From: Escherichia phage PJNS034 | Direction: 5' to 3' (one strand) | DNA: 64,000 nucleotides | Sequence record: PP391266.1 | In this document: positions 14,025-60,682 of the stretch, one piece after another | Layout of the letters: each line of letters starts with the position of its first letter | Numbering within the stretch: the first letter of the stretch is position 1 | Translations under genes and position numbers: made by a program | The notes under the pieces: generated by a model | What the model was told of the DNA's origin: nothing | What the model saw: the letters and a program-made list of their open reading frames with translations, nothing else | Databases searched by the model: none

Positions 14025-17000
14025 CGCCATTCCTGCCACAGAACCACCGAGATTCATGTACTCTGCAAGGTTAGTGCCGTAAGCATCAGTTGCTCGTAAG
14101 TTACGAGACTGGAGAGCTTTCTTAACAGCACCATGACCAAGCAAGTGAGCAGAAGCTCGGATGCCTTCCATAGTTACCGGAACACCATCAATAGTCTGAC
14201 CGATGTACTGGTCAAGACCCATGTTTTTGGTACGACGGTCTAACATCTTATTCCAATCTTCAAAAGCCTTTTCCTGTGCTTCTGGAGAGTTCAGGAACTC
14301 CTCTTTCGAGTTAACCCCATACTTACCAGTCCAGTTAGACTTCTCGTTCAGAATAGATTTCTGACCACGACCAACACGACCTTGTGACTTGATAATACCT
14401 AAGTCAACAAGAGCAGGCCATCCAAATTGGTACTTACCGACATAACCGAGAGTGTTCTCGATATCGTACTTACCACCGGATTCACGCTGGCCTAACACGT
14501 CACCATATGCACTCATCATACCTCCTGCATAAGCGCTACCAGCAAACATAGAAGTCAGACCAATTGCACTCAAACCTAATTTCTTAGCCAGTGCATTAGC
14601 TGATTTCTCGTTACGGGCATAACGAACGATAGTTTCTTTATCAGGGTCAACCATCGCATACTCATAGCCTTTATCAAAGGCTACCTCTGGTGAATCAACA
14701 CCTTCTGCCAGTTCGTATGGGTTTACCACTTTGATTTCTGGGTCAGATTCCAGTGCTTTACCATCCAGAGCTTCTGCTGCGGTGTCTACAACTTGCTTAA
14801 CCTGTTCGGTTGGCATGTCTTGCATAGCATCGAGCATATTCTCTACTGGTGCTTCTGGAGTAGGAGTCGGTTCAGGTTGTGGTTCAGTTACCACTGGTTC
14901 TTCACGTACTGGAGCAGCAAAGTCTTCCTCAGCCATAACTACTGGCTTCTGTACTGGTTCATCCATCATCGCCTTAGCAATTGGGGATTCATCAGCACGT
15001 AAGGCTTGTTTGTAGTCTTCCAGACTGTTGTAAACCTTCGGAGCACGTTCTGGGTCATACAGGCCGTAAGCAGATGCGATTGCTCGCTGGTTAGCTGGCC
15101 CCATATAGTTGGTAGTCTCACCTTTCCCGAACACTGCTTTAATCTGGTTACGCATGTCCATAGTGTACAGGCCGTTAGCCCCATTCACCATTTTATCGTA
15201 GCCTTTAGAGCGACGGTATTCGATAGCACCAAGTACATCACCCATCGTCTTCGCCTGAGTCATTACGTCAGTAACAGATTCAGAAGCCTTACCTGCGTTG
15301 ATTGCTTTCTTACCGAAGTTCTGAATTTGTTTCAGCATCGCATTGGATGCAGTAGCAATGTCAGCTTTCAGGGAATCAGCAATTGCAGCCACTTCTTCTG
15401 GAGTGTTACGGGCAATGATTTCATCCAACGATGCACGAGTCTGTGCAGCCGTTTCTTCCAGTGACTTAACTTGCTCTTTCAGTGCCTTGATTGGAGCATC
15501 CAGTTGAGTTGCTTTCTTCTCAAGAATTTCCAGCTTACGTTCGTGTGCTTCTTTGCGTTTCTGCTCAGCAGCTTGTTCACGTTTCTGTTTGTCTTGGAGA
15601 GCCTTCTCTTCCTTCGCCTGTTTATCACGGAGAGCTTTGTCAGCAGCTTCTTGCTTATCGTGCATCTTCTGATATTCAGCAGCCAGTTTACGTTGTTCAC
15701 GTTCCCAAGCCATATCAGCTTTCTCACGAGCAGCTTCGTCTTTCGCTTGAGCTTTCGCTTCATCACGTTTAACACGAGCAGCATCTAACAGTTCTTTCTC
15801 ACGGGCTTTGAAAGCAGCAATTTCCTCAGCATGTGAATCACGCTGTAAACGTTCTTCTGCACGTTGAGTTTCTTTCAGACGTTTCTGTTCAGCACTTGCT
15901 TGTTCTTTCTTCAGACGGTCGCCACGTTGTAACAGCTTGTTAGCAGTTGCACGAAGTTCTTTCTGAGTCAGTGGAGCAGTAGAGCCGAAGGTCTGTGCTT
16001 CAACAACTTGTAATGCTTGTTCTTTCGGAATGCCAAGTGAATCAGCAAAGTCCATCAGGTTTTCATGCTGAGCATAAATCTGATTAACTGCATCATCTTC
16101 AGCTTTACGGGCTACAGTCTCTTCTGGAGTCTCAGCACCTTTAGCCAGAGCATCACGCTCACGTTGCATTGCCTTAATCAGTGAAGCCTTCTCACTATTC
16201 GTAAGCTGACGCATAGAGCCAGTTACAGGGTCAATGTAAGGTGAAGTCAGGTCGTCCATTACGAACTGGTCAAGGCCGTACTTACTTGCCAAACCGGAAA
16301 TATGTTCGTTCTGGGTTGTGATGTTTTTAGCTGCTTCATCACGGATACCTGCTTTAACTTCCTCTGCCTCTGTCTTAGCTTTCTCAGCCTGTGCATTACG
16401 AGCTTCCTCACGAGCACGTTGAGCCAATTCAGTAATCTCACCAGCATCACGGATGTTAGCGATTTGGTCTTCCGGTACACCTGCACGACGAGCACGTTCT
16501 TCCAATGCTTGACGTTCAACTTGTGCTGCACGGTTACGAATGGTTTCAGTTTCACGAATAGCTGCACCCAATACTGCATCCAGACCACGAGGTGCTGGAG
16601 CATTTGGAGCAGGAGCCGCTGGAGTAGGTTCACCAGTTGCCAGTGCTTGCAGGTCAGATGGGTCACGAACTACAGGGGCAGGTTCTGGAACAACAGTAGG
16701 CTCTACAACCGTTGGTTCAGGAGTACGAGCGTATTCCATTGAAGCCAGAGATTGTAATGCTGCTTGTTCTTCTGCACGACTAATGAATCGAGCAGCCTGT
16801 TCAGAGTTAACTTCCGCAATCTGAGCATCAGACCAACCTTTGTTACGAAGCACTTCTGCCTGTACAGGAGAAACACCACCATCAGGTGCTGGCTGAGTCA
16901 TTTCTGGAGTAACAACTGGTTCAGGAGTTACAGTCTGTTCTGGAGCTACAGGTGGTACATCTGGAGTCGGCTCTGGAGCAACATCTGCTGGTGGCGGAGT

Positions 17001-43905: not shown

Positions 43906-44086
43906 GCTTACCGATTCAAACGCTCTTTAAAAATGTGGTCTGTCTTTAGGTGGTGTTTAACATCATTACTACAAGGCGCTTAGTTAGTTATCTGGTTTTG
44001 ATTCCTGTTTCATTAGTGATTCAGGCGGATTGATAAAGCATCTTCAATAAGTCTTTAACAGTTCGATACTTCGAAGAAATTAACGA

Positions 44087-44114
44087 TTGACAGCGTACTA
44101 GATTCCTGTAAGAT
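44087..44114 (+). promoter_or_regulatory. sigma70-like promoter candidate
   Basis: TTGACA, 16 nt spacer, TAAGAT. Confidence 0.4.
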
Positions 44115-44232
44115 AGACCACGTTTTAACGCTCTTTAACAATATGAATCATTAACGCTTAAACGTTAGTTTAATCAGACGTTATCAAGTGAAGCTGAAAA
44201 GTAACACGATAACAAATGATGAAAATAAACGG

Positions 44233-44260
44233 TTGACAGCGTGAAATGATTCGGTATAAT
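44233..44260 (+). promoter_or_regulatory. strong sigma70-like early promoter
   Basis: Consensus TTGACA, 16 nt spacer, consensus TATAAT, about 480 nt upstream of first early gene. Confidence 0.6.
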
Positions 44261-44741
44261 GAGCGCCATCGAATGACAGAACGTTGTCAGACGATAGCCG
44301 GATAAGTGGATAACTTATAACGGCAGTTCGATAAAGTAGTGTGGTAGCGGGTAGCGGTATGTAACACGGATAATCTACGGATTAACGGCTTATTTGTTGC
44401 TTGCTTAAAGCATAAAACGTCGGGCGGCACGATGGGAGAAGTGCATAAAATCAATTAGGCTCCCTGACTCTTTAACAATTAGGAAACTACGCACCACAAT
44501 TAACGTTGGATAACGTAAAGAGTGGGTTAATTTAGGGTGATTCCCTGCGTAGGCTTGTCGAGCTGATAACAGCGGTATGTGATGGACGCTTATATACTCC
44601 CTCCATGATAGTGTATGACTGATTCCACCTAGGCCAAAGTGAAAGGGCGATAACGAATAGCAAGTAACAATCTCGTTTGATATGGGCATTTAATAGTGAG
44701 TGTCCAGATTAAACGATAAAACTGAATTGAGGATTAAACCT

Positions 44742-45348: not shown

Positions 45349-45387
45349 AGCCCCTTGCATTGAATAAATGTGAGGGGCTTTTTGTTT
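45349..45387 (+). terminator. rho-independent terminator
   Basis: AGCCCCT-N17-AGGGGCT followed by TTTTTGTTT. Confidence 0.55.
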
Positions 45388-46688: not shown

Positions 46689-46886
46689 ATGGAAGTATTA
46701 ACAATGTTCGCTGTGTTCGTCATAGAGCTTCTCTGGGTGCATCCTATGGCATTCTTCGCAGACTTAGGTGCTGCGGGTCACTTTGGCTGGTCTTTGGCCT
46801 TCCTGATGGTGTACGGGCTGTTTATCGCTACGTTGCCATACAATATCCTCAAGCTATTCATTAAACGTAAGGAAATCCCTGCATGA
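46689..46886 (+). CDS. small membrane protein
   Basis: About 65 aa, two hydrophobic helices; start uncertain. Confidence 0.35.
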   Translation: MEVLTMFAVFVIELLWVHPMAFFADLGAAGHFGWSLAFLMVYGLFIATLPYNILKLFIKRKEIPA

Positions 46887-47246: not shown

Positions 47247-47263
47247 AAGCCCAAGCGTCCGAA

Positions 47264-47331
47264 GGGAATATTACTAAGAAATAATATAAGAAAGATTATA
47301 TCTAACTATATTACTTCTTATTAATATTCCC
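47264..47331 (+). repeat. long inverted repeat: 17-bp stem (1 mismatch) with 34-nt AT-rich loop
   Basis: GGGAATATTACTAAGAA ... TTCTTATTAATATTCCC; left arm overlaps conserved element copy C. Confidence 0.55.
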
Positions 47332-47349
47332 TTACTTATTGGAGGAGTT

Positions 47350-47436
47350 ATGTTATCTCTTATCAAACTTCATCAAGATAAACTAATCATTGCACTGGTT
47401 GTGATTCTGTCCTGCTTGAACATGGATGGTGTGTGA
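47350..47436 (+). CDS. small hydrophobic peptide (28 aa)
   Basis: Strong RBS GGAGGAG then ATG; MLSLIKLHQDKLIIALVVILSCLNMDGV; TGATG coupling to next gene. Confidence 0.3.
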   Translation: MLSLIKLHQDKLIIALVVILSCLNMDGV

Positions 47437-47792
47437 TGCAGGGTGTTTATCTTAAACCTCGCATTCAAGACCACATTAAAGCGACTCTGGACTTTCACTC
47501 TGCGGGTGGCAAGATTAACGAGGTGATGGTGTTGGAGTTGTGTGATGTGATGCTGACCTTCGGCATATGTCTGCGAAATCATCCACCAGAAGCTCAAGGA
47601 CAGGCTCTAAAGGGTTGCGCTAGGGAAATGCTCAAGCGGATTAAATATCCTGCCCTGCGTATTCTGGTGCGTAAAATGCTAGTGCCTTTCGCTTTACCTA
47701 AAGGTGTGTTTAACGAGTTGGAACACATCATGGAATCCTGCATCAACGGGATGAATGAAACAACTCACCAAACGATTGAACAAAAGGATTAA
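47436..47792 (+). CDS. hypothetical protein
   Basis: 118 aa ORF. Confidence 0.4.
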   Translation: MQGVYLKPRIQDHIKATLDFHSAGGKINEVMVLELCDVMLTFGICLRNHPPEAQGQALKGCAREMLKRIKYPALRILVRKMLVPFALPKGVFNELEHIMESCINGMNETTHQTIEQKD

Positions 47793-47796
47793 TAAC

Positions 47797-48051
47797 ATGG
47801 CTAAGATTGCAACTGTGTGGTTTAACAAAACTGGTACTAACACTGTGTACCTCAAGCTGAATGGTAAGCTGCACAAGACTGAGGTGACTATCCCTCGTAC
47901 TCACCTTATCAGCGGTCACATGCTAAATGATGCTGTTAAGAAGAAGCTGGTCGAAGAAGCGATTCGTGCTGACCTCGGCTGTGGCGTAGTTATCGCTGAC
48001 AACCTCAAGAACTATCAACACAATGGGGTACGCTTCCAGTATGGAAAATAA
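47797..48051 (+). CDS. hypothetical protein
   Basis: 84 aa from ATG with RBS AAGGA. Confidence 0.4.
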   Translation: MAKIATVWFNKTGTNTVYLKLNGKLHKTEVTIPRTHLISGHMLNDAVKKKLVEEAIRADLGCGVVIADNLKNYQHNGVRFQYGK

Positions 48052-48052
48052 A

Positions 48053-48469
48053 ATGAAGCGTGTGCTTAACCTGTCTGCCGATAAGGTGAACGGGTATGTG
48101 TTTAAAGATAGCCCGTCTATCTACTGGTCATGGTGGCATGTATTGCTCACCGTGGCCTTTGTTGTATTGGTGGTGTTCGCTTTGTGTGCTCCATTCAGTA
48201 AGGCACACGCTGCATCATTCCCTGCTGGTGAGCATTTACAATGCCGCATTGAATTAGAAAGTGTTGGTGGTGGTCGTAAGCTGACGTTTAAATCTTACGA
48301 TGATTCACACATCAAACTTGCTAATAGTAATACTCTGGTGCTTCGCGGTGATGCTCAAGTGCCTGAGTCAACTGTTAACCTGAACAATGGTGAGTTGTTC
48401 GCAACAAGGGGTAGCTGGACTTATCGCGGCCTCTGTAAAAACGTAGATAATATCAGGATAAACCCATGA
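48053..48469 (+). CDS. membrane-anchored protein (N-terminal TM)
   Basis: TM segment WSWWHVLLTVAFVVLVVFALCAPF then soluble domain. Confidence 0.4.
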   Translation: MKRVLNLSADKVNGYVFKDSPSIYWSWWHVLLTVAFVVLVVFALCAPFSKAHAASFPAGEHLQCRIELESVGGGRKLTFKSYDDSHIKLANSNTLVLRGDAQVPESTVNLNNGELFATRGSWTYRGLCKNVDNIRINP

Positions 48470-48789
48470 AAAAGATTTTTACTACTGTGACGATTCTGGC
48501 TGGCCTGTTTGCTTCATCGGCTAACGCCTTTGTTTGCACTGGTACTGCTACCCATAAAGACGGTGGCACGGCTGACATTATCGTTAACACCAACGATATG
48601 GTGTTTGATGATGCTGTCGGTCTGTATCGTGCTGAAACTCAGTGGCATCCTAAGCTGGCCTCTACGCTGTATGTAGACCAGTCTGAAAAGACAATCGAAG
48701 GTGTTGGCTTCCGTGGCATGTACACCGCCGTAGCAGTCGATAGCAAAGACGTTATCATGATTGCTGACGACCTTGTTTGCTATGAGTAA
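48466..48789 (+). CDS. secreted/periplasmic protein (signal peptide)
   Basis: MKKIFTTVTILAGLFASSANA-F: Sec signal with AxA cleavage site. Confidence 0.45.
   Translation: MKKIFTTVTILAGLFASSANAFVCTGTATHKDGGTADIIVNTNDMVFDDAVGLYRAETQWHPKLASTLYVDQSEKTIEGVGFRGMYTAVAVDSKDVIMIADDLVCYE
48481..48492 (+). repeat. 12-mer ACTACTGTGACG, copy 6
   Basis: Exact, codons 6-9 of signal-peptide protein. Confidence 0.9.
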
Positions 48790-49174
48790 ACTTGAGTGGG
48801 CTTGGTATATCTTTGCAATTACTGCCATAGTTGCATGGGGTGTATGGCTCAATAGTCTGCTGTAAGCTGCCTAATGCCTGCCTCATTGGTGGGCATTGTG
48901 AAGCATACCGCTTCAAACAACATTCTCATTAATTCCCTTTAGGGACTATCGCTATGTCTGAATGGCAATCCGATAGCCAACTTGGAACCTGTCCGTGAGT
49001 TGAAAAGAATCCTCTATATGAGGGGTTTTGGGATAAGTAACGCAATATGGTAATCAACCTCAGGGGTGGGGTTGGTTATCTAAGTGTGTTTACGGAAATC
49101 ATTGGTCATTGAGCTAAAGTACCAGTGGTAACTGATAAGCATACTTAGACAACCAACTAAATAAGGAATCCCCA

Positions 49175-49453
49175 ATGAAAAGAATTGCAATGCTGTTAAG
49201 TGCTGTAATGCTGACTGGCTGTGTATCACTGACTGAGCAGACTGATAAAGAGTTGTGCTTTGGTTATGGTCGTGCTGAGTCAGAAGCGATGCGTGATGCT
49301 ATCTTGCAAGAGATGCAAGAGCGTCAGGATGCTGGTATGTTCCCGATTGCTATCGAGGAATGTAAGAAGCAAGTGTTTCGTGGTATTCAATCACGGAATG
49401 AATCAAACCTTCTATCTGCGAGCATGATTGGTGCTCGTTACCAACAACAATAA
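49175..49453 (+). CDS. lipoprotein
   Basis: MKRIAMLLSAVMLTGC lipobox (L-T-G-C); 92 aa. Confidence 0.5.
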   Translation: MKRIAMLLSAVMLTGCVSLTEQTDKELCFGYGRAESEAMRDAILQEMQERQDAGMFPIAIEECKKQVFRGIQSRNESNLLSASMIGARYQQQ

Positions 49454-49463
49454 GGATGTAACA

Positions 49464-49913
49464 ATGTCTCAAGTTCTGAATGATGTAAACCGCAGCTTTG
49501 GTTATGAGTTCTACGAAGAATCAAAAGCTCTGTCTGGTGTTCAAGGCTATCTGGCTGACCAGCCTAAGTTTCGTGTGTTCCTCAAGCTGCGTCGTCGCAT
49601 GATTGAAGGTGAACTGCGTCAACTGAAAGTGATGCTGAAAACTGCCTCTGGTCTGGATGCTGCCGCTATCTACAAGCTGCGCTCTGCACTGAAAGATGAT
49701 TTGCGTCGTATCGGTCAGCAACTGAAAGACCTGCGACTGCATACGCTGGGTGCTAAGAAAGCAGAAGCACAGCGTTACCTGAACGTAATGGCAATGCACG
49801 ACCAGTGTGAGAAGGTCGGTGTTGATGGTACAAAACTCCTGAATGAAGTACATGCTGAAATTCAGGCTCGTAAGGCTTTGGATAATGAGTCTCGCAAACT
49901 GGTTTCTGAATAA
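49464..49913 (+). CDS. hypothetical protein
   Basis: 149 aa from ATG with RBS AAGGATG. Confidence 0.4.
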   Translation: MSQVLNDVNRSFGYEFYEESKALSGVQGYLADQPKFRVFLKLRRRMIEGELRQLKVMLKTASGLDAAAIYKLRSALKDDLRRIGQQLKDLRLHTLGAKKAEAQRYLNVMAMHDQCEKVGVDGTKLLNEVHAEIQARKALDNESRKLVSE

Positions 49914-50102
49914 GATGGAAGCAGGGGTTGATTTGACCCCTGTTAAAAATGTAGGGCTGGTTAAGGCCAGCACCTCACACAATGGCGGCGTTAACTTATC
50001 TGAGAAAGAACGTTATCGTCGTCGTGAATTATCTGGAGGGATTGCTGAGCATCATTGCACACATCCCGGTTATCAAATCTTCCCTTCATAAGAGAGTACA
50101 AA

Positions 50103-50774
50103 GTGAAACGTCCTGAAACTGCAATCCGACCGTTTATGAAGTCCAGCATTGAGAAGCTGGAAGCTGGTCAACTGTTCTATGTTCGCAATGAGAAAGGTAG
50201 TGGTTATCGTCCTCGTTGCTTTGTTGGTGTGTTGCCTGATGGTAAGACGTATCAGTATCAGTCTTACATGAACAACGATATCTTTGATTCGGTTTATGAA
50301 GAACCGCATCTTGACGACCAGCCTGTGTTTGTCCCGAAACCATTTGCAATGAAAATCATGCAACGTGGTAAGGCACTGGCTGAGGAAGTTGCTGAGGTAT
50401 TCAGCGAGATTCCAGCGAACGAAATTCAACGTTCGAATCTGGATGAACTGTTCGACCGTCTGCCTGATGAAGTTATCGACTACGACGCTTATGAAGCGAT
50501 TCGTCAGGCTGTACGTCGTTTGGGTTGGCAGGACGCATCAATTGTTCGTCGTCAGAATGGCGGCTGGATGGTTGATGATGAAGCGTTTGAATATATGTAC
50601 AACGCTGTGACTGGCAAGGCTGAGCGTGAAGCAGCGGATACTACTGTGACGATTGCTCCGGTGGTTGATGTGGTTGATAGCTCGATTAGCCGACCAAAAG
50701 CTAATTCATTCGTTAAGAAGCTGAGCGGTTTCTTGTTTGGTAATTCTAAGCAAGGGGATAGCTGCGGCATCTAA
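50103..50774 (+). CDS. hypothetical protein
   Basis: About 223 aa; start uncertain (GTG 50103 or ATG 50136); contains in-frame 12-mer. Confidence 0.4.
   Translation: MKRPETAIRPFMKSSIEKLEAGQLFYVRNEKGSGYRPRCFVGVLPDGKTYQYQSYMNNDIFDSVYEEPHLDDQPVFVPKPFAMKIMQRGKALAEEVAEVFSEIPANEIQRSNLDELFDRLPDEVIDYDAYEAIRQAVRRLGWQDASIVRRQNGGWMVDDEAFEYMYNAVTGKAEREAADTTVTIAPVVDVVDSSISRPKANSFVKKLSGFLFGNSKQGDSCGI
50640..50651 (+). repeat. 12-mer ACTACTGTGACG, copy 7
   Basis: Exact, within ORF 50103-50774. Confidence 0.9.
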
Positions 50775-50785
50775 ACGGTGATTGT

Positions 50786-51235
50786 ATGAGTGTTGCAGCA
50801 ACAGCAGCATTTCTGTGTATGACGTTAGTTATTCACGAAGAAGCACGAGGCGAGCCTATCGCTGTGAAATACGAGGTAGGCCACGTGGTGAAGAATCGGA
50901 TGGATTCACGCCAGTATCCAGATACATGCGAGGCGGTTGTACTGCAACCCAAACAGTTCTCGTGGACAAAAACAAAAGGTGTACAAGATGAGTACGATTT
51001 GCGACAACGTTATTATCGCGTCCTTGACTCGCTCGACACTCCCCAAAAGCGACTTTCGTTTGCTGCTTCTCAAAGAGCGGCAGATGAAGTGCTCAGTGGT
51101 AAGCATAAATCTCGAATCGGAGCTGCGCTCCACTTCGTTACTCGCGGTCACTCAACTCATTGGGCGTCCAAATTTAAACGCCATACTATAGCAGGTATGG
51201 ATTTCCTACTCCCAAGGAAGAAGAAAAATGCTTAA
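50786..51235 (+). CDS. cell-wall hydrolase, SleB/CwlJ-like (Hydrolase_2 family); candidate endolysin
   Basis: HEEARGEPIAVKYEVGHVVKNRM...YPDTCEAVVLQPKQFSW matches Hydrolase_2 signature. Confidence 0.55.
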   Translation: MSVAATAAFLCMTLVIHEEARGEPIAVKYEVGHVVKNRMDSRQYPDTCEAVVLQPKQFSWTKTKGVQDEYDLRQRYYRVLDSLDTPQKRLSFAASQRAADEVLSGKHKSRIGAALHFVTRGHSTHWASKFKRHTIAGMDFLLPRKKKNA

Positions 51236-51431
51236 ATGGCTGTTCCGTCAGGGAAAAGACCTGAACTCTATTCTGGCTCCGCTTCGTAAGATGAAGCTGG
51301 AACTGGAAGAACGCCTCCACAAGAATGCTGATGATATTGTGGAAGCACAAAAGACCATCACCGAAAAGACCAAAGAAAATGGTTCTATTGGTGAAGCCCT
51401 GCAAACTGACCTGTTCAAATCTATCAAGTGA
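51228..51431 (+). CDS. hypothetical small protein
   Basis: 67 aa; RBS AGGAAG. Confidence 0.35.
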   Translation: MLKWLFRQGKDLNSILAPLRKMKLELEERLHKNADDIVEAQKTITEKTKENGSIGEALQTDLFKSIK

Positions 51432-51442
51432 GACAAACGACT

Positions 51443-52360
51443 ATGATTCGCACCCCATTCGGTAACTTCTCTGGTAAGACTATCGGTATCACTGCTGGCG
51501 TGATTGTGTTCCTCTTCATCCTGCTGCTGTTGAAGCCGTTCAAAGTTATCTCTGACACCGAGGAGGGTGTGCAGAAGTCGTGGTCAGGCCAGATTTACAG
51601 TCAACCAATGACTGCTGGCTTCCACTGGATGAACCCGTTCAACAGCGTCACAACGTTCCCAATGACGTATAAGAACGTTCAACTGACAAATATCGGCGTT
51701 CCTGCTCAGGACGGTTTCAAAACCACGATGGATATCAGCGTAACTGGTAAATTTATTCCGGGCATGACCCCTGCTGTCCTGAAGTCTACCGGTAATTCTG
51801 AACAGTTTGCAGCAGTGCATATCTCTAAACGTATCACAGCTAAGCTGATTGATGCTGGTAAGAAGCACGCTGTAATCAGTCAGAACTTCTACGATGAAAG
51901 CACTCTGAACAAAGTTCGTGAAGAAATCATCGTAACGGCTAACCAAGAGCTTGAGCCTCTGGGTTGGAAAGTGACTGCGGTTGAAATCAGCAACATCGAC
52001 CTGCCGGACGTTATCAAGAACGCTATCAGCGAGTCCAAGGTTCGTGCTGAACAGGTTAAGCGTCAGAAAGAATCCTTAGCAATTGCTGCTCTGAAAGCAC
52101 AAGAGATTGAGAAAGTTGCAGAGTCTAACTCTAAAGCAACTATCCTCGATGCTGATGCTAACGAGTACAAAGCTAAGAAAGAAGCTGATGCTAAAGTGTA
52201 TGCTGCTGCTCAGGAAGCAAAAGGTAACAAAGAAGTTGCTGCCTCTGTAACTCCTGCTCTGGTTGAATACATGAATGCTCAAGCTAAGATGAAGTGGGAT
52301 GGTCAGATGCCAACAACGAATGTTGGTTCTAACACTCCTGTCATCATGAGCATGAAGTAA
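51443..52360 (+). CDS. SPFH/band-7 (HflK/HflC-like) membrane protein
   Basis: N-terminal TM, SPFH core ...VTAVEISNIDLPDVIKNAISE..., C-terminal Ala/Lys coiled-coil. Confidence 0.5.
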   Translation: MIRTPFGNFSGKTIGITAGVIVFLFILLLLKPFKVISDTEEGVQKSWSGQIYSQPMTAGFHWMNPFNSVTTFPMTYKNVQLTNIGVPAQDGFKTTMDISVTGKFIPGMTPAVLKSTGNSEQFAAVHISKRITAKLIDAGKKHAVISQNFYDESTLNKVREEIIVTANQELEPLGWKVTAVEISNIDLPDVIKNAISESKVRAEQVKRQKESLAIAALKAQEIEKVAESNSKATILDADANEYKAKKEADAKVYAAAQEAKGNKEVAASVTPALVEYMNAQAKMKWDGQMPTTNVGSNTPVIMSMK

Positions 52361-52393: not shown

Positions 52394-52730
52394 GAATGTT
52401 ACTTAAACGAGGAACTAAAAGATGTTTGAATTTATCGGTGATTGTATTGCAACAACACTCAAGGCTGGATTGGGTGTGGTATTCATTGTGCTTATCTGGG
52501 TTGGCTTCCAGATGGCATGGAACTGGACGCTTGACCGTATTCGCTGGGGATTCAAATGAAAATTGAGTTCACTGGAATGAAAGGTGGTCAGCATTGCTTC
52601 AAGAAAGGGGCATTGACTTACCGCTTTAGCGAGGACGAACTCGCACAAATCGTTGGCTATGCTGTACGTATGGCAAAGGCTAACAACAACAAAACCCTGA
52701 AACAAACTAACTCCAAAAAGGACAAATGAA

Positions 52731-54128
52731 ATGCCAATCGTAACTATCGTAACTAACCGTAATAACTCTGAAACTAAGCGTGTTGAAGCTCAGTCAGGCG
52801 GTTGCTTCGGCTTTATGGCATCAACCTCTTTCTTCCGTGACCATCGCCGCGATGTTGAGTACGTTGGTTATCATATGGAGTCATCCAATCAGGCTAAGCA
52901 TTGTAGCGAAGTCTTTGATGGTAAGAATAAGTTATTCCCGTATCACAAATTCATGACCAACAATGAGTTCCATGCTATGTTCGGTGAGAACTTTGTGGAT
53001 ACTCGCCACGGTACTGTTAGTCACCACGGTTATGTGGTTGTTGAAATGCAGCCAGAAGGTTTTGAAGGTGTTGGTATTCCACAGGACATGTTCATCTCTG
53101 GTCTGTTCACTGCTCGTCAGTTGAGCTATGGCCTGTATCCGAACATGCGTGACACCATTAAGAAAGGTGTTCACCCAATGATGGCTTACGTTATCAGTGA
53201 GCTGATTCAGTGGGAAGATACAAGCACTGCTCTTGCTGCACAGCTTCGCTGGAAACGTCAGCGTGTTAGTTCTTCCAACATCGACAGCACAGCGTTCGGT
53301 AAGAAGAACCTGATTAACATGTTCAACTGCCTGAAAGGTAAGAAGCATGTGCCTTACTTCGGTCACGAAGGTGGCATCATTCAGCGTGGTGGTTACAAGC
53401 GTGACCATAACTTCAACACCTCTGCTGATAATCGTCCGGGTATTTATCAGACAATCACGGCGAACATGAACACTTCATCTGCACCGATTGAAGCTGATGA
53501 ACCAATCATCAACCCGTTCCACTTCTCTCCAGCTTACCTCGGTCATGTACTGAATGAACTGCTGGGTTGTGAAGTATTTGATATGTCGAAGATGCTTGAC
53601 CGTCAGGGTATGAAAGTTAACCCAAAATCTTCGGTGTACAAGTTCTACCAGATGCGTGATGTGAAGTTCCGTAAGTCATATCGAAAAGGTGATATGGTTG
53701 AAGTTCGTGCTGATATGTTCGGTGCTGACCAGTACATCAACCGTCACAACACTCCGCTGAGCAATCTGGTTTCTTATCGTCATGGTGAGAACAACACCAC
53801 TAACCGTGTTGGTTTCGTACCGGTTAAGACTCATGTTGAGAAGGTCAGCGTGAAGAACGGTGTGGAAAGCGTTAAGCTGGAAAACGGTTGCTGGGTATCT
53901 CCACGTTACATCAAAACTGCTGGTACTCATGCGGTTGAAGGTGTGAAGATTCAGGCAGGTACTGACACTCCGGTAAATGCACTGTATACAGTTCGTAATT
54001 CAAAAGAAGTGTATGCTGCACGTACCTTTGACTTGTTCGAAGCATCTGTTCGACTGATTCAGGTTACTGGTAACAGTATCGGTCAAGAGATTATCAAGCG
54101 TCCACGTGACCTGATTCCAGCGCTCTAA
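52731..54128 (+). CDS. hypothetical protein (first gene of amidoligase module)
   Basis: 465 aa; no motif recognised. Confidence 0.45.
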   Translation: MPIVTIVTNRNNSETKRVEAQSGGCFGFMASTSFFRDHRRDVEYVGYHMESSNQAKHCSEVFDGKNKLFPYHKFMTNNEFHAMFGENFVDTRHGTVSHHGYVVVEMQPEGFEGVGIPQDMFISGLFTARQLSYGLYPNMRDTIKKGVHPMMAYVISELIQWEDTSTALAAQLRWKRQRVSSSNIDSTAFGKKNLINMFNCLKGKKHVPYFGHEGGIIQRGGYKRDHNFNTSADNRPGIYQTITANMNTSSAPIEADEPIINPFHFSPAYLGHVLNELLGCEVFDMSKMLDRQGMKVNPKSSVYKFYQMRDVKFRKSYRKGDMVEVRADMFGADQYINRHNTPLSNLVSYRHGENNTTNRVGFVPVKTHVEKVSVKNGVESVKLENGCWVSPRYIKTAGTHAVEGVKIQAGTDTPVNALYTVRNSKEVYAARTFDLFEASVRLIQVTGNSIGQEIIKRPRDLIPAL

Positions 54129-54282
54129 TGGGTATTAATAAGACCATGACTACAGCGTTCTTTATCCTCGCTGTAGCATCGCCAATACTTGCCTGTTTCA
54201 ATACAACAGCAGCAGCATTTAGTGCTGGCATGGCTGTCTTCGCAATGCTTTGTTATGTTGTAGCGAACGGTTGATATACTCA

Positions 54283-54360: not shown

Positions 54361-55170
54361 ATGACGATTCGCCTGATTACTCTTGGTGCTGACCCTGAAA
54401 CTATTGTTGCTCGCAACGGTGTTCCAACTCACGCTATTGGTCTTATCGGCGGTACTAAGGAAGAACCACGTAAGATTATCCGTGGTGGTCGTGAAGTTGG
54501 TGCGGTGCAGGAAGATAATGTCCTGTATGAGTTCAACATCATGCCACACGATACTCGTCAGGGATTCATTGACAACATTCAGCAGATGTTGGAAGTGGGT
54601 CGTGAGATTCTGGGTGATGGTTACGAAATCACTAATAAGACTTCTCACATCTTCTCTGATGAAGACATGGCTCATTTCCCTGACTCAGCGTTTATCTTCG
54701 GTTGTGAACCGGATTTCTTCGCTGGTAATGGTGAGATGAATCCGAAGCCTGCTGCACCGTGGCCGGGTCTGCGTACCGCAGGTGGTCATGTTCACTTCGG
54801 GTTCGATGAGCGTGTAGTTCGTGATGATGAGAATGTTCGTTCTCTGATTCAACTGTGCGATATGTATATGGCGTTGCCGTCAATGCTTCTGGACACTGAC
54901 GACCTGCGTAAAGAACTGTATGGTAAGGCCGGTGCATTCCGTCCGAAAGCATATGGTGCTGAATATCGTACACTGTCAGGTTTCTGGATTCATAATCCTG
55001 AAAATACTGGCTTCGTGTTTGACCAAGCGCAGAAAGCGTATGATGCGTTGGCAACTGGTCTGGGTCGTGAGATGTTGGCACGTTTCCCATACGAACTGGT
55101 TGTCGATATCATCAACAGCAATGACCGTGGACGTGCTGAACGTGCCCTGAAAGTTATGCAGGTTGCATAA
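54361..55170 (+). CDS. amidoligase-like (GCS2/carboxylate-amine ligase-like) protein, divergent paralog
   Basis: 269 aa; GGHVHFGFD (H-x-H) and GAEYRTLSGFW (E-x-R) as in GCS2-type ligases; N-terminal E-x-E replaced by D-P-E. Confidence 0.4.
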   Translation: MTIRLITLGADPETIVARNGVPTHAIGLIGGTKEEPRKIIRGGREVGAVQEDNVLYEFNIMPHDTRQGFIDNIQQMLEVGREILGDGYEITNKTSHIFSDEDMAHFPDSAFIFGCEPDFFAGNGEMNPKPAAPWPGLRTAGGHVHFGFDERVVRDDENVRSLIQLCDMYMALPSMLLDTDDLRKELYGKAGAFRPKAYGAEYRTLSGFWIHNPENTGFVFDQAQKAYDALATGLGREMLARFPYELVVDIINSNDRGRAERALKVMQVA

Positions 55171-55352
55171 TGGAAGAAGGTCTGCTGATTAGCTGGGTTG
55201 AATCTCCAGCGAACCGTAAGACCAAGACTCATACCCTCTTCTTCGAAAGCCTGGACGAGGGTTATGAGTTCATGGCCTCTAAAAGTTGTGTAATTCAAGT
55301 ACAACGCATTCCACTGGTGAGAAAGAATGGCGAAACTGGTAACGGTAAATAA
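55170..55352 (+). CDS. hypothetical small protein
   Basis: 60 aa, ATG overlapping upstream stop. Confidence 0.3.
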   Translation: MEEGLLISWVESPANRKTKTHTLFFESLDEGYEFMASKSCVIQVQRIPLVRKNGETGNGK

Positions 55353-55518
55353 CGCAGATAAAACTGTAACTCGTCGTGTCTTTATGGACAACGAAGAGGG
55401 TATCATGTGGGCAGTTGACCAAGCCCGCACAGCACTGTCAGTCGTGACTGATGATGTGGAAGTGGTCGAGGCTTCCAGCCGTAAAGGTTGGGAAGGTCAT
55501 ATCGCATGTGATTGCTAA
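55327..55518 (+). CDS. hypothetical small protein
   Basis: 63 aa ORF. Confidence 0.3.
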   Translation: MAKLVTVNNADKTVTRRVFMDNEEGIMWAVDQARTALSVVTDDVEVVEASSRKGWEGHIACDC

Positions 55519-55542
55519 TTTAAACTGAACGAGAGAACTAAA

Positions 55543-56151
55543 ATGTCAATCAATATGTCAAGTGGTGATTTACGTCTGTATTGGGGTGGGTGTTATGCAC
55601 CTGTTGCATGGGATGCAGCAGATAGTGGCGTAGCAACACTGGTAATTCACGACGTTCGTGTGATAAATCCAATGTCACGTGACTACACCGAAGCACGAGT
55701 TCAAGGTGAACTATTCTTCATTCGTAATGGAGAAGAGGCTCGTGGTAATTTTGAAGGTCGTATGTCTGACCTCCTCGGTGATGGGTTCACCACTCCTCAA
55801 CGCAATATCGGTTATATCCGTGTTCACGGTCAACCGTATTGGATTACCTTCAAACGTCGTCGTACAAATCGTAAAGGCATCACCAATGACCGTCTGGCTG
55901 TGTATGTAGCTGGGCATCGTGGTGAAGCAGGTTTGAACTTCGGTAGTGATGTGTTGTGTCGTCTGTATGCAACCTTTGATGGTCGTATCTCTGATGATTT
56001 CTGTATTCATCAGAACATGATTCATTATAAAGGTGTGGTTGTCGGACGTTATGAGCGTCACAATCGTATTGTATTAGCTGAACGTTTTGCGTATCTTAGC
56101 TGGTCGCTGGAACGTATCGGTGGTTACGACGTAACGGTGGAGGTTGAGTAA
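55543..56151 (+). CDS. hypothetical protein
   Basis: 202 aa; RBS GAGAGAA. Confidence 0.4.
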   Translation: MSINMSSGDLRLYWGGCYAPVAWDAADSGVATLVIHDVRVINPMSRDYTEARVQGELFFIRNGEEARGNFEGRMSDLLGDGFTTPQRNIGYIRVHGQPYWITFKRRRTNRKGITNDRLAVYVAGHRGEAGLNFGSDVLCRLYATFDGRISDDFCIHQNMIHYKGVVVGRYERHNRIVLAERFAYLSWSLERIGGYDVTVEVE

Positions 56152-56975
56152 TGATTATTGCTGACATTTTAGGGCATGGTCGTGGGTCGGATGTTGTTGA
56201 TACGCATCCGTTGATTGTTGGTCGAGGCCGTGTAGGACTCGAATTAGAACTGGAGAATATGCCAAATGCTCGACAAGCTGCTGGTTGGACAGTTACTGGT
56301 GACGGTTCTCTGCGTAATAGCGGCGTGGAATATGTACTCCGTGGTGCTCAGGGAGGTATGGAGTTATTTAATTCGATACTTTCTCTGGAAGAAGCACTCA
56401 TGGCACATCAATGTGATGCTAACCTTCGCTGCTCTACTCACGTTCACCTTGATATACGTCGGCTCACTGTGGCTCAACTCAAGCGTTTACTTCTGGCTTA
56501 TACAGTCTTTGAGCCATTAATCTTTGAGTTGTCCGGTGCGCATCGTCGTACTAACAACTTCTGTCCGTCGTTTAGTTTCGCTCAGCAACAAATTCGTAAG
56601 CTGAGTAACAACTGGCATCATGATGGTGAACGATTCCTTGCTCGTATTGTGGAAGGTCGTGACCGCCAATCCAGTGATAAGTATTCAGCACTGAATCTGG
56701 TTCCAATCTTCACTCAGGGTTCTGTAGAGTTCCGTGGTGCAGAAGCGAAGCCAAGTGCAGGTAAGATGATTCGTCTGGCTAACCGTATTCTAAGTCTGTA
56801 TGACTTAGCGGTTAACTCTGATATGAATCAGTCTGATGCTGAGTTCATTAACTCACTGGCGAACCTTGATGTTCAACAGGCATTGATGGGTACGATTCCT
56901 CGTGACTTCGAACTCAGCGAAGAACTGGTGAATGAAGGACGTGTCTTAGCGTTCGATATTATCTCTCTGGGGTGA
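56151..56975 (+). CDS. amidoligase (GCS2-like carboxylate-amine ligase)
   Basis: 274 aa; VGLELELE (E-x-E), CSTHVHLD (H-x-H), GSVEFRGAE (E-x-R): the three signature blocks of gamma-glutamyl-cysteine-synthetase-2-like amidoligases. Confidence 0.55.
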   Translation: MIIADILGHGRGSDVVDTHPLIVGRGRVGLELELENMPNARQAAGWTVTGDGSLRNSGVEYVLRGAQGGMELFNSILSLEEALMAHQCDANLRCSTHVHLDIRRLTVAQLKRLLLAYTVFEPLIFELSGAHRRTNNFCPSFSFAQQQIRKLSNNWHHDGERFLARIVEGRDRQSSDKYSALNLVPIFTQGSVEFRGAEAKPSAGKMIRLANRILSLYDLAVNSDMNQSDAEFINSLANLDVQQALMGTIPRDFELSEELVNEGRVLAFDIISLG

Positions 56976-56976
56976 C

Positions 56977-57192
56977 ATGAGCTGGAACGAACGAGAGTAT
57001 CGTAAACCAAAGTTGGGCACTGTATGTGTCCACTTCGAACCTTCGTATAAGTCAACCTTTGGAAGTACGAAGAAGTTCCCTAACGCATCGTTCTACTTGA
57101 GTACGAACGGTGTAATCATCATCCGTGATATGGATGGTGACAACATCTGTGCATACCCTGAAGGTGTGTGGCTGAATGTTGAAATGAAGTGA
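56977..57192 (+). CDS. hypothetical small protein
   Basis: 71 aa ORF. Confidence 0.3.
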   Translation: MSWNEREYRKPKLGTVCVHFEPSYKSTFGSTKKFPNASFYLSTNGVIIIRDMDGDNICAYPEGVWLNVEMK

Positions 57193-57202
57193 TTAACTCA
57201 AG

Positions 57203-57224
57203 CCCTTCTTCGGGAGGGTTTTAT
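57203..57224 (+). terminator. terminator/attenuator hairpin in conserved cassette (UUCG loop)
   Basis: stop-TTAACTCAAG, CCCTTC-TTCG-GGAGGG, TTTTATGG. Confidence 0.5.
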
Positions 57225-57278
57225 GGTAATCATTACCACAAACTATTGAAACTAACTATTGAACTTGAGGAAAGTATT

Positions 57279-59154: not shown

Positions 59155-59159
59155 AACAA

Positions 59160-60653: not shown

Positions 60654-60682
60654 TTGCTTTAGGGTATTCTTCGGAGTACCCT

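What the first reader, a model, noticed from the sequence alone, without database searches (positions are those of the whole stretch)
48053..52360. Early-arm cluster of envelope-targeted proteins: TM-anchored protein, secreted protein, lipoprotein, SleB-like cell-wall hydrolase and SPFH protein
Consecutive plus-strand genes encode an N-terminally anchored protein, a Sec-signal protein, a lipobox lipoprotein (LTGC), a Hydrolase_2-family muramidase-like enzyme without an obvious holin partner, and an SPFH/HflKC-like membrane protein. The hydrolase is the only candidate endolysin seen, yet it sits in the early arm. The lipoprotein and SPFH protein could mediate superinfection exclusion or interfere with host membrane proteases; spanin-like roles are possible but the sequences are not coiled-coil or Pro-rich.
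Basis: partly seen in the sequence, partly recalled or inferred. Interest (0 to 1): 0.5.

Follow-up and report, generated by a model that had tools for sequence, protein, structure and literature searches.

The report
Phage envelope-protein cassette plus SleB-type endolysin–SPFH operon
This stretch of a 65-kb E. coli podophage holds a fast-evolving set of small exported proteins followed by a conserved operon that couples the phage's only free cell-wall hydrolase to a membrane-scaffold (SPFH) protein; the parts are real and mostly of known kinds, but their roles are inferred.

Summary
They are not consecutive. The interval also holds a 27-aa membrane peptide gene, a conserved ~300-nt non-coding stretch with an 89-nt hairpin, and four more ORFs. 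The window matches Escherichia phage PJNS034; its nearest relative in the phage collection is Pantoea phage TacPo2.

The interval has two parts. (A) 47.4–50.1 kb is a hypervariable island (37–61% aa identity to TacPo2, against 78–94% in the flanks). It encodes a periplasmic beta-barrel protein, a Sec-secreted protein, a tiny TM peptide and an outer-membrane-type lipoprotein. One sister lineage lacks the lipoprotein, so it is accessory rather than an essential spanin. (B) 50.8–52.4 kb is a conserved, tightly packed trio (85–94%): a signal-less Hydrolase_2 (SleB-type) enzyme, a 67-aa helical protein and an SPFH protein.

No other free endolysin, holin or spanin family was detected in the genome. 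The hydrolase is therefore probably the endolysin, and its holin is unidentified. A superinfection-exclusion role for the exported proteins and a lysis-related role for the SPFH protein are inferences. Verdict: a new variant of known kinds, of moderate interest.

The parts
48053..48469 (+). 138-aa exported protein. It has a nearly invariant 28-residue N-tail, a hydrophobic helix at residues 27-50, a conserved AHA|A site, and a variable ~85-aa periplasmic beta-barrel domain with a conserved Cys pair.
48466..48789 (+). 107-aa Sec-secreted protein (signal MKKIFTTVTILAGLFASSANA|F). The mature protein is 86 aa with Cys residues near both ends. It overlaps the upstream gene by 4 nt.
   Evidence: 46% identity to TacPo2_90. 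No family hit.
48782..48865 (+). 27-aa single-TM peptide ORF (MSKLEWAWYIFAITAIVAWGVWLNSLL). Its ATG overlaps the stop codon of the secreted-protein gene.
   Evidence: Conserved in length and hydrophobic character, with amino-acid substitutions, in TacPo2 and L011/L012.
48866..49174 (+). Conserved non-coding stretch. It contains an 89-nt near-perfect hairpin at 49070-49158.
   Evidence: The 430-column alignment covering 48780-49185 has 82% mean column identity, against 46-55% aa identity in the flanking genes. Hairpin MFE is -42.8 kcal/mol, z -8.2, versus -26.5 on the opposite strand. Compensatory pairs occur across 3 lineages. No Rfam family matches.
49175..49453 (+). 92-aa lipoprotein (lipobox LTG|C, +2 Val, which points to outer-membrane sorting). 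The mature 76 aa are modelled as three helices and carry two conserved Cys.
   Evidence: Only 2 database relatives. 54% identity to TacPo2_92. The gene is absent in lineage L011-L013. AF2 core pLDDT is about 90. No structural match.
49464..49913 (+). 149-aa coiled-coil protein with no TM segment or signal.
   Evidence: 37% identity to TacPo2_93. No family hit.
49885..50091 (+). About 68-aa conserved small ORF that overlaps the 3' end of the coiled-coil gene. The start codon is uncertain.
   Evidence: Homologues are TacPo2_94, L011 1461-1664 and L008 7017-7244.
50103..50774 (+). 223-aa ORFan that sits directly upstream of the hydrolase in every lineage examined.
   Evidence: 70% identity to TacPo2_95 and 43% to L008. 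Only 4 representatives among 1.84 billion.
50786..51235 (+). 149-aa SleB-type (Hydrolase_2) cell-wall hydrolase with no signal peptide. It is the probable endolysin.
   Evidence: Pfam PF07486 60.2 bits. PHROG 938 'endolysin'. SleB structure 4F55, E 4e-4, with the Glu of Y-G-E-S-R-G-E aligned to E19, which is invariant in alignment A1. 85% identity to TacPo2_1.
51228..51431 (+). 67-aa hydrophilic helical protein. Its start overlaps the hydrolase stop by 8 nt and is preceded by AAGGA.
   Evidence: 94% identity to TacPo2_2 and 62% to L008. No TM segment and no family hit.
51443..52360 (+). 305-aa SPFH/Band_7 protein with an N-terminal TM segment, an SPFH domain, a coiled coil and a C-terminal cap region.
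   Evidence: PF01145 57.6 bits. PHROG 200, E 1e-40. QmcA cage 8Z5G, E 2e-5, over residues 157-302. 90% identity to TacPo2_3. 756 phage records hold relatives.
46692..46886 (+). 64-aa protein with two TM segments and a basic C-terminus. It lies outside the finding and is a topological holin candidate only.
   Evidence: 80% identity to TacPo2_83. No family hit.
14031..14504 (-). C-terminal lysozyme / lytic-transglycosylase-like domain of the 1610-aa virion protein. This is the window's other muralytic domain and is presumably used for cell entry.
   Evidence: PHROG 27932 'baseplate hub subunit and tail lysozyme', E 3e-20, residues 1451-1608. The motif RESGG...GKYQFG is present.

Best explanation
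The interval is a composite of two units on the phage's plus-strand (early/middle) arm.

Unit A (about 47.4-50.1 kb; within the finding, 48053-50091) is a hypervariable accessory cassette. Its products are sent to the cell envelope. They are a small periplasmic beta-barrel protein (signal-anchored or cleaved), a Sec-secreted protein and a 27-aa membrane peptide, all three translationally coupled. After a structured RNA element comes a disulfide-containing outer-membrane-type lipoprotein. I infer that these proteins modify the infected cell's envelope. The most likely effect is to block adsorption or entry of related phages, in the functional style of T5 Llp, Cor or T4 Imm/Sp.

Unit B (50103-52360) is a conserved operon. 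Its signal-less SleB-type lytic enzyme accumulates in the cytoplasm and serves as the phage's endolysin. It is released by a holin encoded elsewhere and not yet identified. The co-translated 67-aa helical protein and the membrane-anchored SPFH scaffold act at the inner membrane. The SPFH domain probably faces the periplasm and oligomerises like QmcA or HflK/C. Their role is plausibly to organise or time the membrane and cell-wall step of lysis.

Shown here: the gene structures, targeting signals, family memberships, conservation pattern and operon packing. Inferred: expression timing, the exclusion role, the endolysin role and any SPFH-hydrolase interplay.
For: Families and signals.

Two evolutionary regimes: there is a contiguous low-identity block at 47433-50091 (37-61% aa identity to TacPo2). 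Its flanks are 78-94% identical and the trio is 85/94/90% identical.

The trio is conserved in the same order in TacPo2, in L011-L013 and in the 70%-identical L008 phage. Its junctions are an 8-nt overlap and an 11-nt spacer.

The lipoprotein gene is an indel between sister lineages. L008 carries different exported small proteins at the same position: two signal-peptide proteins, a lipoprotein and TM peptides.

No other endolysin, holin or spanin family is found in the genome.

Signal-less Hydrolase_2 genes sit in apparent lysis clusters elsewhere. In Vibrio phage VEN the gene lies next to a lipoprotein with a C-terminal TM segment at the genome end. Aeromonas LAh_6 and Cronobacter GAP52 show the same kind of neighbour. 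The SleB-like protein of Certrevirus is treated as the endolysin and has an overlapping class II holin candidate (PMC7344957; CR8 annotation).

Three tandem sigma-70 consensus promoters lie at 44.08-44.5 kb, with a terminator at 45349, at the head of this arm.

SPFH genes lie near lytic-transglycosylase-type or lysis-control genes in other phage groups. In Kayvirus the order is tgl-mbpS-mbpV-lysK-holA (PMC7150955). The same is seen in T5-likes, FP_Toutatis, and KP27 and Miller, where the neighbour is rI.
Against: There is no expression data, so 'early' is positional only.

No holin or outer-membrane disruptor could be assigned, so the lysis pathway is incomplete.

In T5-likes the homologous SleB-like enzyme coexists with a separate endolysin/holin pair, so a Hydrolase_2 gene in an early region need not be the endolysin.

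None of the exported proteins resembles a known exclusion protein in sequence or fold.

The membrane orientation of the window's own SPFH protein is ambiguous by the positive-inside rule: R3 and K12 lie before the TM segment and KPFK lies after it. It is clearer only in the T5, SE131 and Miller homologues.

The SPFH-lysis neighbourhood is anecdotal. It is absent in SE131, Vibrio 2.130.O and Enterococcus TJE1.
Confidence: 0.5

Rival explanations
1. The hydrolase is not the endolysin. As in T5-like phages, it would be an accessory peptidoglycan-remodelling enzyme made before lysis and working together with the SPFH protein, for example to loosen the sacculus. The real lysis genes would belong to unrecognised families elsewhere in the genome.
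For: The gene sits on the early/DNA-metabolism arm, far from the structural genes. T5-likes carry both a SleB-like gene and an SPFH gene in their early region. From my own knowledge, T5 lyses with a separate endolysin/holin pair; PMC11180984 likewise reports Tequintavirus genomes with an M15 endolysin next to the holin plus a distant SleB-domain ORF. No holin is adjacent here.
Against: The T5 and Certrevirus enzymes carry Sec signal peptides, whereas this clade's enzyme has none. It therefore cannot reach the wall without a membrane lesion, which is the hallmark of a holin-dependent endolysin. No other muralytic ORF was found in the window or in the missing 1.7 kb. Signal-less relatives in VEN, LAh_6 and GAP52 sit beside spanin-like lipoproteins.
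Confidence: 0.2
2. The whole interval is a dispersed lysis cassette. The 138-aa protein would be a T4-T-like class III holin, with a cytoplasmic tail, one TM segment and a periplasmic disulfide domain. The secreted protein would be its RI-like antiholin. The lipoprotein would be an o-spanin, partnered by the TM protein or the SPFH protein as i-spanin. The hydrolase would be the endolysin.
For: The window has a single lipoprotein and a single free hydrolase. The N-tail and TM segment of the 138-aa protein are nearly invariant. Its gene is translationally coupled to that of a periplasmic protein.
Against: The lipoprotein gene is absent from the L011-L013 lineage, which keeps everything else. The L008 homologue of the 138-aa protein has a plain cleavable signal, and the AxA site is invariant. 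The modelled periplasmic domain is a beta-barrel, not a coiled coil, and shows no match to T, RI or any spanin. The lipoprotein is helical and not Pro-rich, and it is separated from any TM partner by two genes plus 300 nt. The only spanin PHROG match covers just the signal peptide (E 0.0098). SPFH relatives also occur in phages of Gram-positive hosts, which have no outer membrane.
Confidence: 0.12
3. There is no functional unit. The interval is a chance run of unrelated accessory genes ('morons'), and their shared envelope destination reflects only the general abundance of small membrane proteins in phage early regions.
For: Most products are clade-restricted ORFans. The enrichment statistic is modest (p 0.002-0.013). 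Gene content of the variable part differs between lineages.
Against: The order and tight packing of the trio are conserved down to 54-70% protein identity. Three exported genes are translationally coupled. The conserved structured RNA between the sub-operons argues for coordinated expression.
Confidence: 0.13

Closest known systems
SleB-like (Hydrolase_2) endolysins of Certrevirus phages (CR3_087, CR8 gp090, CB7_83) with a downstream class II holin candidate
   Same: They share the Pfam Hydrolase_2 family and the conserved catalytic-motif Glu. In both, a small ORF overlaps the 3' end of the hydrolase gene. Neither sits in a classic lysis cassette.
   Different: The Certrevirus enzymes carry Sec signal peptides, and their overlapping ORF is a 2-TM membrane protein. 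Here there is no signal peptide, the overlapping ORF is a soluble 67-aa helical protein, and an SPFH gene follows.
Signal-less Hydrolase_2 genes next to lipoproteins with a C-terminal TM segment (u-spanin-like topology) in Vibrio phage VEN, Aeromonas phage LAh_6 and Cronobacter phage GAP52
   Same: All lack a signal peptide. In all, the first helix of the domain is uncharged and hydrophobic at the extreme N-terminus. Identity is 31-41%.
   Different: Those phages pair the enzyme with a lipoprotein that also has a TM segment. This clade pairs it with a 67-aa protein and an SPFH protein, and its only lipoprotein has no TM segment and is dispensable.
T5-like phages: SleB-like 'cell wall hydrolase' and the SPFH protein of PHROG 200
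   Same: Both families are present, in the same order and on the same strand, in an early/accessory region. The SPFH proteins are 31% identical over 84% of their length.
   Different: The T5 enzyme is Sec-secreted. The two genes are about 1.6 kb apart, separated by other ORFs and tRNA-like sequence. T5-likes also have a separate M15 endolysin next to a holin (PMC11180984).
Kayvirus lysis region tgl-mbpS(SPFH)-mbpV-lysK-holA (PMC7150955)
   Same: A phage SPFH membrane protein is encoded beside a lytic-transglycosylase-type enzyme and the lysis genes.
   Different: The host is Gram-positive. Tgl is a secreted IsaA/SceD-like enzyme, not a Hydrolase_2 protein. The canonical endolysin and holin are present alongside. 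The role of MbpS is itself untested.
Bacterial SPFH cage proteins (E. coli QmcA, PDB 8Z5G; HflK/HflC)
   Same: They share an N-terminal TM segment, an SPFH domain, a coiled coil and a C-terminal cap region. The best solved match is QmcA, E 2e-5. HflC matches weakly, at 22.8 bits.
   Different: The score is far below the HflC equivalog cut-off of 134.4 bits. No NfeD or HflK partner gene is present. Orientation, oligomer state and any link to FtsH are unknown.
Phage exclusion proteins delivered to the envelope: T5 Llp and phi80/N15 Cor (outer-membrane lipoproteins), T4 Imm and Sp
   Same: These are small proteins made early that carry a lipobox or Sec signal. Llp has a functionally needed disulfide (my own knowledge). 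Here the Cys pairs are conserved, the genes evolve fast and they vary between lineages.

Membership tests
Pfam Hydrolase_2 / SleB-CwlJ cell-wall hydrolases | Profile score above the curated threshold | tested here: met
   PF07486 scores 60.2 bits against a cut-off of 27, E 3e-16, over residues 22-134. The precomputed PF07486 assignment is present on all 6 close relatives.
Pfam Hydrolase_2 / SleB-CwlJ cell-wall hydrolases | Conserved catalytic glutamate in the E-(A/S)-R-G-E motif | tested here: met
   E19 is invariant in alignment A1. It aligns with the Glu of YGESRGEP in B. cereus SleB 4F55. That this Glu is the catalytic residue rests on my recollection of Li et al. 2012.
Pfam Hydrolase_2 / SleB-CwlJ cell-wall hydrolases | Muralytic (lytic transglycosylase) activity | not testable with these tools
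   This needs a zymogram or muropeptide analysis.
Canonical holin-dependent endolysin | Soluble enzyme without an export signal | tested here: met
   The protein starts directly at helix 1 of the domain. The T5 and CR8 homologues have 20-40-residue N-terminal signal extensions that are absent here.
Canonical holin-dependent endolysin | Holin gene adjacent or identifiable in the genome | tested here: not met
   There is no holin family hit anywhere. Only topological candidates exist, at 46692-46886, 48782-48865 and 62580-62729.
SAR (signal-anchor-release) endolysin | N-terminal weakly hydrophobic TM domain of about 18-20 residues with a basic N-terminus | tested here: not met
   The uncharged stretch S2-I16 is only about 14-15 residues and has no Lys or Arg before it. 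It is, however, clearly more hydrophobic (mean KD 2.4) than the same helix in the secreted homologues (-0.5 to 0.3).
SPFH / Band_7 superfamily | Profile score above the curated threshold, plus an N-terminal membrane anchor and a C-terminal coiled coil | tested here: met
   PF01145 scores 57.6 bits against a cut-off of 23.6. There is a TM segment at residues 16-30. Residues 157-302 align with the QmcA coiled coil and cap.
HflK/HflC (FtsH modulators) | Equivalog-level similarity and a paired K/C partner | tested here: not met
   TIGR01932 scores 22.8 bits against a cut-off of 134.4. There is only one SPFH gene, and no NfeD or HflK hit in the window.
Two-component spanin (i-spanin + o-spanin) | An outer-membrane lipoprotein gene embedded in, overlapping or adjacent to a type II inner-membrane protein gene with a periplasmic coiled coil | tested here: not met
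   A lipobox is present. The nearest TM-protein gene, however, is two genes and 300 nt away, and its modelled periplasmic domain is a beta-barrel. The coiled-coil ORF 49464-49913 has no TM segment.
Two-component spanin (i-spanin + o-spanin) | Conserved as an essential function across close relatives | tested here: not met
   The lipoprotein gene is missing in the L011-L013 lineage, which retains the flanking genes and the hairpin.
Unimolecular spanin (T1 gp11 type) | Lipobox plus a C-terminal TM segment in one protein | tested here: not met
   The 92-aa lipoprotein has no C-terminal hydrophobic segment.
Cor / Llp-type exclusion lipoproteins | Homology of the mature domain | tested here: not met
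   PHROG 1119 (Cor) matches only residues 1-31, which are the signal peptide, at E 5e-4. There is no structural match.
Cor / Llp-type exclusion lipoproteins | Blocks the phage receptor or phage entry when expressed | not testable with these tools
   This needs efficiency-of-plating and adsorption assays.
T4 holin T / antiholin RI / Spackle | Fold similarity of the periplasmic domains | tested here: not met

The most novel reading that the evidence does not exclude
The conserved, tightly packed trio is a previously undescribed lysis-control module. Its parts are a signal-less SleB-type lytic transglycosylase, a 67-aa helical protein and an SPFH cage protein. In this reading a phage-encoded SPFH scaffold organises, gates or times the membrane and cell-wall step of lysis, possibly replacing part of the usual holin/spanin set. 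This would explain why SPFH genes recur beside lytic-transglycosylase-type or lysis-inhibition genes in unrelated phages: Kayvirus tgl-mbpS, T5-likes, FP_Toutatis, and rI in the T4-like KP27 and Miller.
Probability: 0.15. Interest if true: 0.7.

Novelty: new variant of a known kind. Interest (0 to 1): 0.38.

Why it matters
If the SleB-type enzyme is the sole endolysin, this clade (PJNS034, TacPo2 and metagenomic relatives) lyses Gram-negative cells with no recognisable holin or spanin. That would make it a compact system for finding missing lysis functions.

Phage SPFH proteins (PHROG 200) have relatives in at least 756 phage genome records, including T5-like and T4-like phages, and I found no published functional test. 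A clade in which the SPFH gene is operon-coupled to the lytic enzyme offers the cleanest genetic handle on their role.

The hypervariable exported-protein island is a candidate source of new superinfection-exclusion proteins. This matters for phage cocktail design, because PJNS034 is being promoted as a broad-host-range food biocontrol phage.

Tried and rejected
- IMG/VR scans with the hydrolase and with the SPFH protein found no confirmed relatives.
- The word-indexed protein search returned only clade-restricted relatives: 6 for the hydrolase, 2 for the lipoprotein and 7 for the 138-aa protein. A full HMMER scan with the 223-aa ORFan found only 4 representatives.
- PADLOC and NCBIfam gave nothing significant for any product.
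- The idea that the two beta-rich exported proteins are paralogues was rejected: hhalign probability was below 1%.
- The idea that the 67-aa protein is homologous to the 70-aa ORF after the GAP52 hydrolase was rejected: BLASTP gave no alignment.
- The T4 T/RI and Imm/Sp analogies found no fold support.
- A SAR-endolysin reading was rejected because of the length and charge of the N-terminal helix.
- The conserved non-coding blocks and the hairpin are unique in the window, so they are not a repeated promoter or terminator motif. They match no Rfam family; the only hits are weak miRNA-precursor-like scores that reflect a long hairpin.
- Literature searches for TacPo2, for Hydrolase_2 with endolysin and SleB, and for phage SPFH with exclusion gave nothing useful. 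PJNS034 is known only from a reference to an LWT 2025 paper that is not held in the library.
- The look-up of encoding contigs holds no record for the PJNS034 proteins.

Full report
Context. The window is almost a whole podophage genome. Structural genes lie on the minus strand at 14.0-43.2 kb: terminase, portal, scaffold, an SU10-type adaptor, tail fibres and a 1610-aa virion protein. All other genes lie on the plus strand, running 43.3 kb to 64 kb and then 1 to 14 kb. These include DNA polymerase A, a primase-helicase cut by the window end, ten tRNAs, a PnuC-like transporter and a phiEco32-type amidoligase module. The lipoprotein and the 138-aa protein of the finding are 100% identical to proteins of Escherichia phage PJNS034, whose contig is 65,715 bp. 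The only close relative in the phage collection is Pantoea phage TacPo2, 65,025 bp, with every gene annotated as hypothetical. Three tandem promoter-like sites lie at 44.08-44.5 kb; one is a perfect TTGACA-16-TATAAT, and they share a repeated 20-mer. A strong terminator follows at 45349-45379. Together these head the plus-strand arm. The finding sits 4-8 kb downstream. 'Early arm' is therefore plausible by position, but timing was not measured.

Checking the observation. They are not consecutive. The interval 48053-52360 holds ten ORFs and one non-coding element:
- a 138-aa TM/signal protein;
- a 107-aa Sec-signal protein, overlapping the previous gene by 4 nt;
- a 27-aa single-TM peptide, whose ATG overlaps the previous stop codon;
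- about 300 nt of conserved non-coding DNA;
- the 92-aa lipoprotein;
- a 149-aa coiled-coil protein;
- an overlapping ORF of about 68 aa;
- a 223-aa ORFan;
- the 149-aa Hydrolase_2 enzyme;
- a 67-aa helical protein, overlapping by 8 nt and preceded by AAGGA;
- the 305-aa SPFH protein, after an 11-nt spacer.
All are syntenic in TacPo2. Membrane or exported products are enriched here: 4 of the 9 genes with a TM-like segment fall among these 11 genes, out of 88 in the window (p = 0.013). The p-value is 0.002 with the Sec protein and the 27-aa peptide counted and the hydrolase excluded.

Two evolutionary regimes. Protein identity to TacPo2 is 78-94% for genes on either side. It drops to 37-61% in one contiguous block at 47433-50091, then rises to 85%, 94% and 90% for the hydrolase, the 67-aa protein and the SPFH protein. 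The Logan contigs L011-L013 (hydrolase 87% identical) keep the same order but lack the lipoprotein gene. In them the coiled-coil gene follows the conserved hairpin directly. A more distant phage, L008 (hydrolase 70%, contig 84.8 kb), keeps the 219-aa ORFan, the hydrolase, a 71-aa ORF and the SPFH gene in order. Upstream of them it carries a different set of small exported proteins. These are two signal-peptide proteins, an LSGC lipoprotein and TM peptides. One of the signal-peptide proteins is a 28%-identical homologue of the 138-aa protein's periplasmic domain. The finding is therefore a variable exported-protein cassette abutting a conserved operon.

The hydrolase. It is a bona fide Hydrolase_2 member (60.2 bits). 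The Glu of the E-A-R-G-E motif is conserved and aligns with the same motif in the solved SleB catalytic domain. The T5-like and Certrevirus homologues begin with Sec signal peptides. This enzyme, together with those of TacPo2, GAP52, VEN and LAh_6, begins directly at the first helix of the domain. It should therefore accumulate in the cytoplasm and need a membrane lesion to reach the wall, which is how holin-dependent endolysins behave. In the signal-less group that first helix is uncharged and much more hydrophobic than in the secreted homologues (mean KD 2.4 against -0.5 to 0.3). It is too short, and too lacking in basic residues, to count as a SAR domain. I leave this as an unexplained feature. 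Pfam and PHROG scans of the other called ORFs found no other endolysin, holin or spanin. The scans also covered the TacPo2 equivalents of the about 1.7 kb missing from the window, which encode the primase-helicase C-terminus, a 97-aa ORF, a 3'-5' exonuclease and a dUTPase. The only other muralytic element is the C-terminal lysozyme-like domain of the 1610-aa virion protein (RESGG...GKYQFG motif), presumably used at cell entry. In other phages, signal-less Hydrolase_2 genes sit beside lipoproteins that also carry a TM segment, a topology like that of unimolecular spanins. This is seen in VEN at the genome end, and in LAh_6 and GAP52. The Certrevirus SleB-like protein is treated as the endolysin in the literature, with an overlapping 2-TM holin candidate (PMC7344957; CR8). 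By elimination and by analogy, I rate the endolysin role at about 0.6. The holin is unidentified. The only conserved topological candidates are a 64-aa 2-TM protein at 46692-46886, the 27-aa peptide and a 49-aa TM protein at 62580-62729.

The SPFH protein and the 67-aa protein. The SPFH protein belongs to PHROG 200. Relatives occur in 756 phage records, mostly T5-like, T4-like (Slopekvirus, Pseudotevenvirus, Aeromonas phages), Moazamivirus, some Vibrio phages and Enterococcus herelleviruses. The best solved match is the E. coli QmcA cage, PDB 8Z5G with 26 chains, aligned over the coiled coil and C-terminal cap. Similarity to HflC is far below its cut-off. The T5, SE131 and Miller homologues have strongly basic N-flanks, which predicts a periplasmic SPFH domain. 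The window's own sequence is ambiguous on this point. The PHROG label 'lipoprotein' is not borne out, since none of the seven N-termini examined has a lipobox. The 67-aa protein is hydrophilic, helical and 94% conserved, and has no detectable relatives outside the clade. I found no functional study of any phage SPFH protein. One paper notes that the Kayvirus lysis region encodes an SPFH protein, MbpS, between the secreted lytic transglycosylase Tgl and LysK/HolA, and speculates that MbpS aids Tgl export (PMC7150955). In the few contexts I inspected, SPFH genes also lie:
- 1.6 kb downstream of the SleB-like gene in T5-likes;
- 1.3 kb downstream of a '3D domain' protein in Faecalibacterium phage FP_Toutatis;
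- two genes downstream of the antiholin gene rI in KP27 and Miller.
No such neighbour is annotated in SE131, Vibrio 2.130.O or Enterococcus TJE1. This recurrence is suggestive but anecdotal.

The non-coding element. The 'gap' between the secreted-protein gene and the lipoprotein gene is better conserved than the genes around it: the alignment spanning it has 82% mean column identity. It ends in an 89-nt hairpin at 49070-49158 with an MFE of -42.8 kcal/mol and z = -8.2. The hairpin is much weaker on the opposite strand (-26.5 kcal/mol) because it uses G-U pairs, and it shows several compensatory changes among three lineages. A second long hairpin at 47262-47333 (z = -7.3) precedes the variable island. 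Long double-stranded hairpins between sub-operons are reminiscent of RNase III processing sites in T7 early mRNA (general knowledge). This was not tested.

Verdict. The envelope targeting is real, the hydrolase is the sole free muralytic enzyme and has no holin partner, and spanin roles are unlikely. The exclusion and protease-interference ideas remain untested. The 'cluster' is really a variable accessory cassette followed by a conserved hydrolase-67aa-SPFH operon. Each component belongs to a known kind. The unusual features are the tight coupling of a signal-less SleB-type enzyme to an SPFH scaffold and the absence of any recognisable holin or spanin. I rate the finding a new variant of a known kind, with interest about 0.38.

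Noticed in passing
window 48782-48865: An unannotated 27-aa single-TM peptide ORF is translationally coupled to the secreted-protein gene. It is conserved in TacPo2 and in Logan contigs, with amino-acid substitutions but the same length.
   Followed up: partly
window 48866-49174 (hairpin 49070-49158): This non-coding stretch is more conserved than the flanking genes. It ends in an 89-nt near-perfect, strand-specific hairpin (z -8.2) with compensatory changes. It could be an RNase III site or another mRNA-processing or stabilising element. It matches no Rfam family.
   Followed up: partly
window 47262-47333: A second long AT-rich hairpin (27-nt arms, 93% complementary, z -7.3) lies in the intergenic gap just upstream of the hypervariable island.
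   Followed up: partly
L011-L013 (Logan SRR332999xx contigs), for example L011 669-1055: This sister phage lineage lacks the lipoprotein gene entirely but keeps the 27-aa ORF, the conserved non-coding region and the hairpin.
   Followed up: yes
window 44077-44516: Three tandem promoter-like sites share a repeated 20-mer (AAATTAACGATTGACAGCGT). One of them is a perfect TTGACA-16-TATAAT at 44233-44260. A strong terminator follows at 45349-45379. They are probably host-RNAP early promoters, arranged like the A1-A3 promoters of T7.
   Followed up: no
window 14022-18854 (-), C-terminal residues ~1430-1610: The 1610-aa virion protein ends in a lysozyme / lytic-transglycosylase-like domain (RESGG...GKYQFG), preceded by a hydrophobic segment. 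It matches PHROG 'tail lysozyme' but has no Pfam or PDB sequence hit.
   Followed up: partly
window 54361-61311: A phiEco32 / 7-11-type peptide-modification module is present. It comprises a COOH-NH2 ligase, Amidoligase_2, a GATase_6 protein, a gamma-glutamyl cyclotransferase-like protein and a 497-aa ORF. It is shared with TacPo2 and L008.
   Followed up: no
window 12166-13466: A nucleoside 2-deoxyribosyltransferase-like gene is followed by a 7-TM PnuC-like nicotinamide mononucleotide transporter. A transporter of this kind is unusual in a lytic podophage. Relatives such as GAP52 and SE131 carry NAMPT and PRPP-kinase genes instead.
   Followed up: no
window 807-1253: A 148-aa ORF is dominated by Gly/Ala runs and has a hydrophobic N-terminus. 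It is 51% identical to a TacPo2 ORF. Its function is unknown.
   Followed up: no
window 52422-52559 and 54128-54274: Two tiny TM ORFs (45 aa and 48 aa) have no counterpart in TacPo2, where the corresponding intergenic gaps are only 62 nt and 18 nt. They may be spurious or lineage-specific.
   Followed up: partly
window 50786-50833 (hydrolase residues 1-16): In signal-less Hydrolase_2 proteins (this phage, L008, GAP52, LAh_6, VEN) the first helix is uncharged and hydrophobic. In the Sec-secreted T5 and CR8 homologues the same helix is amphipathic and charged. This correlates with the export mode and is unexplained.
   Followed up: partly
P0019 (representative library), against window 50175-50306: Residues 25-68 of the 223-aa ORFan match seven repeated stretches in an unrelated 423-aa protein. 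This suggests a small repeat-forming domain.
   Followed up: no
L020 (KP27) and L017 (Miller): In T4-like phages that carry an SPFH gene, it lies two genes downstream of the antiholin gene rI and behind its own sigma-70-like promoter.
   Followed up: partly
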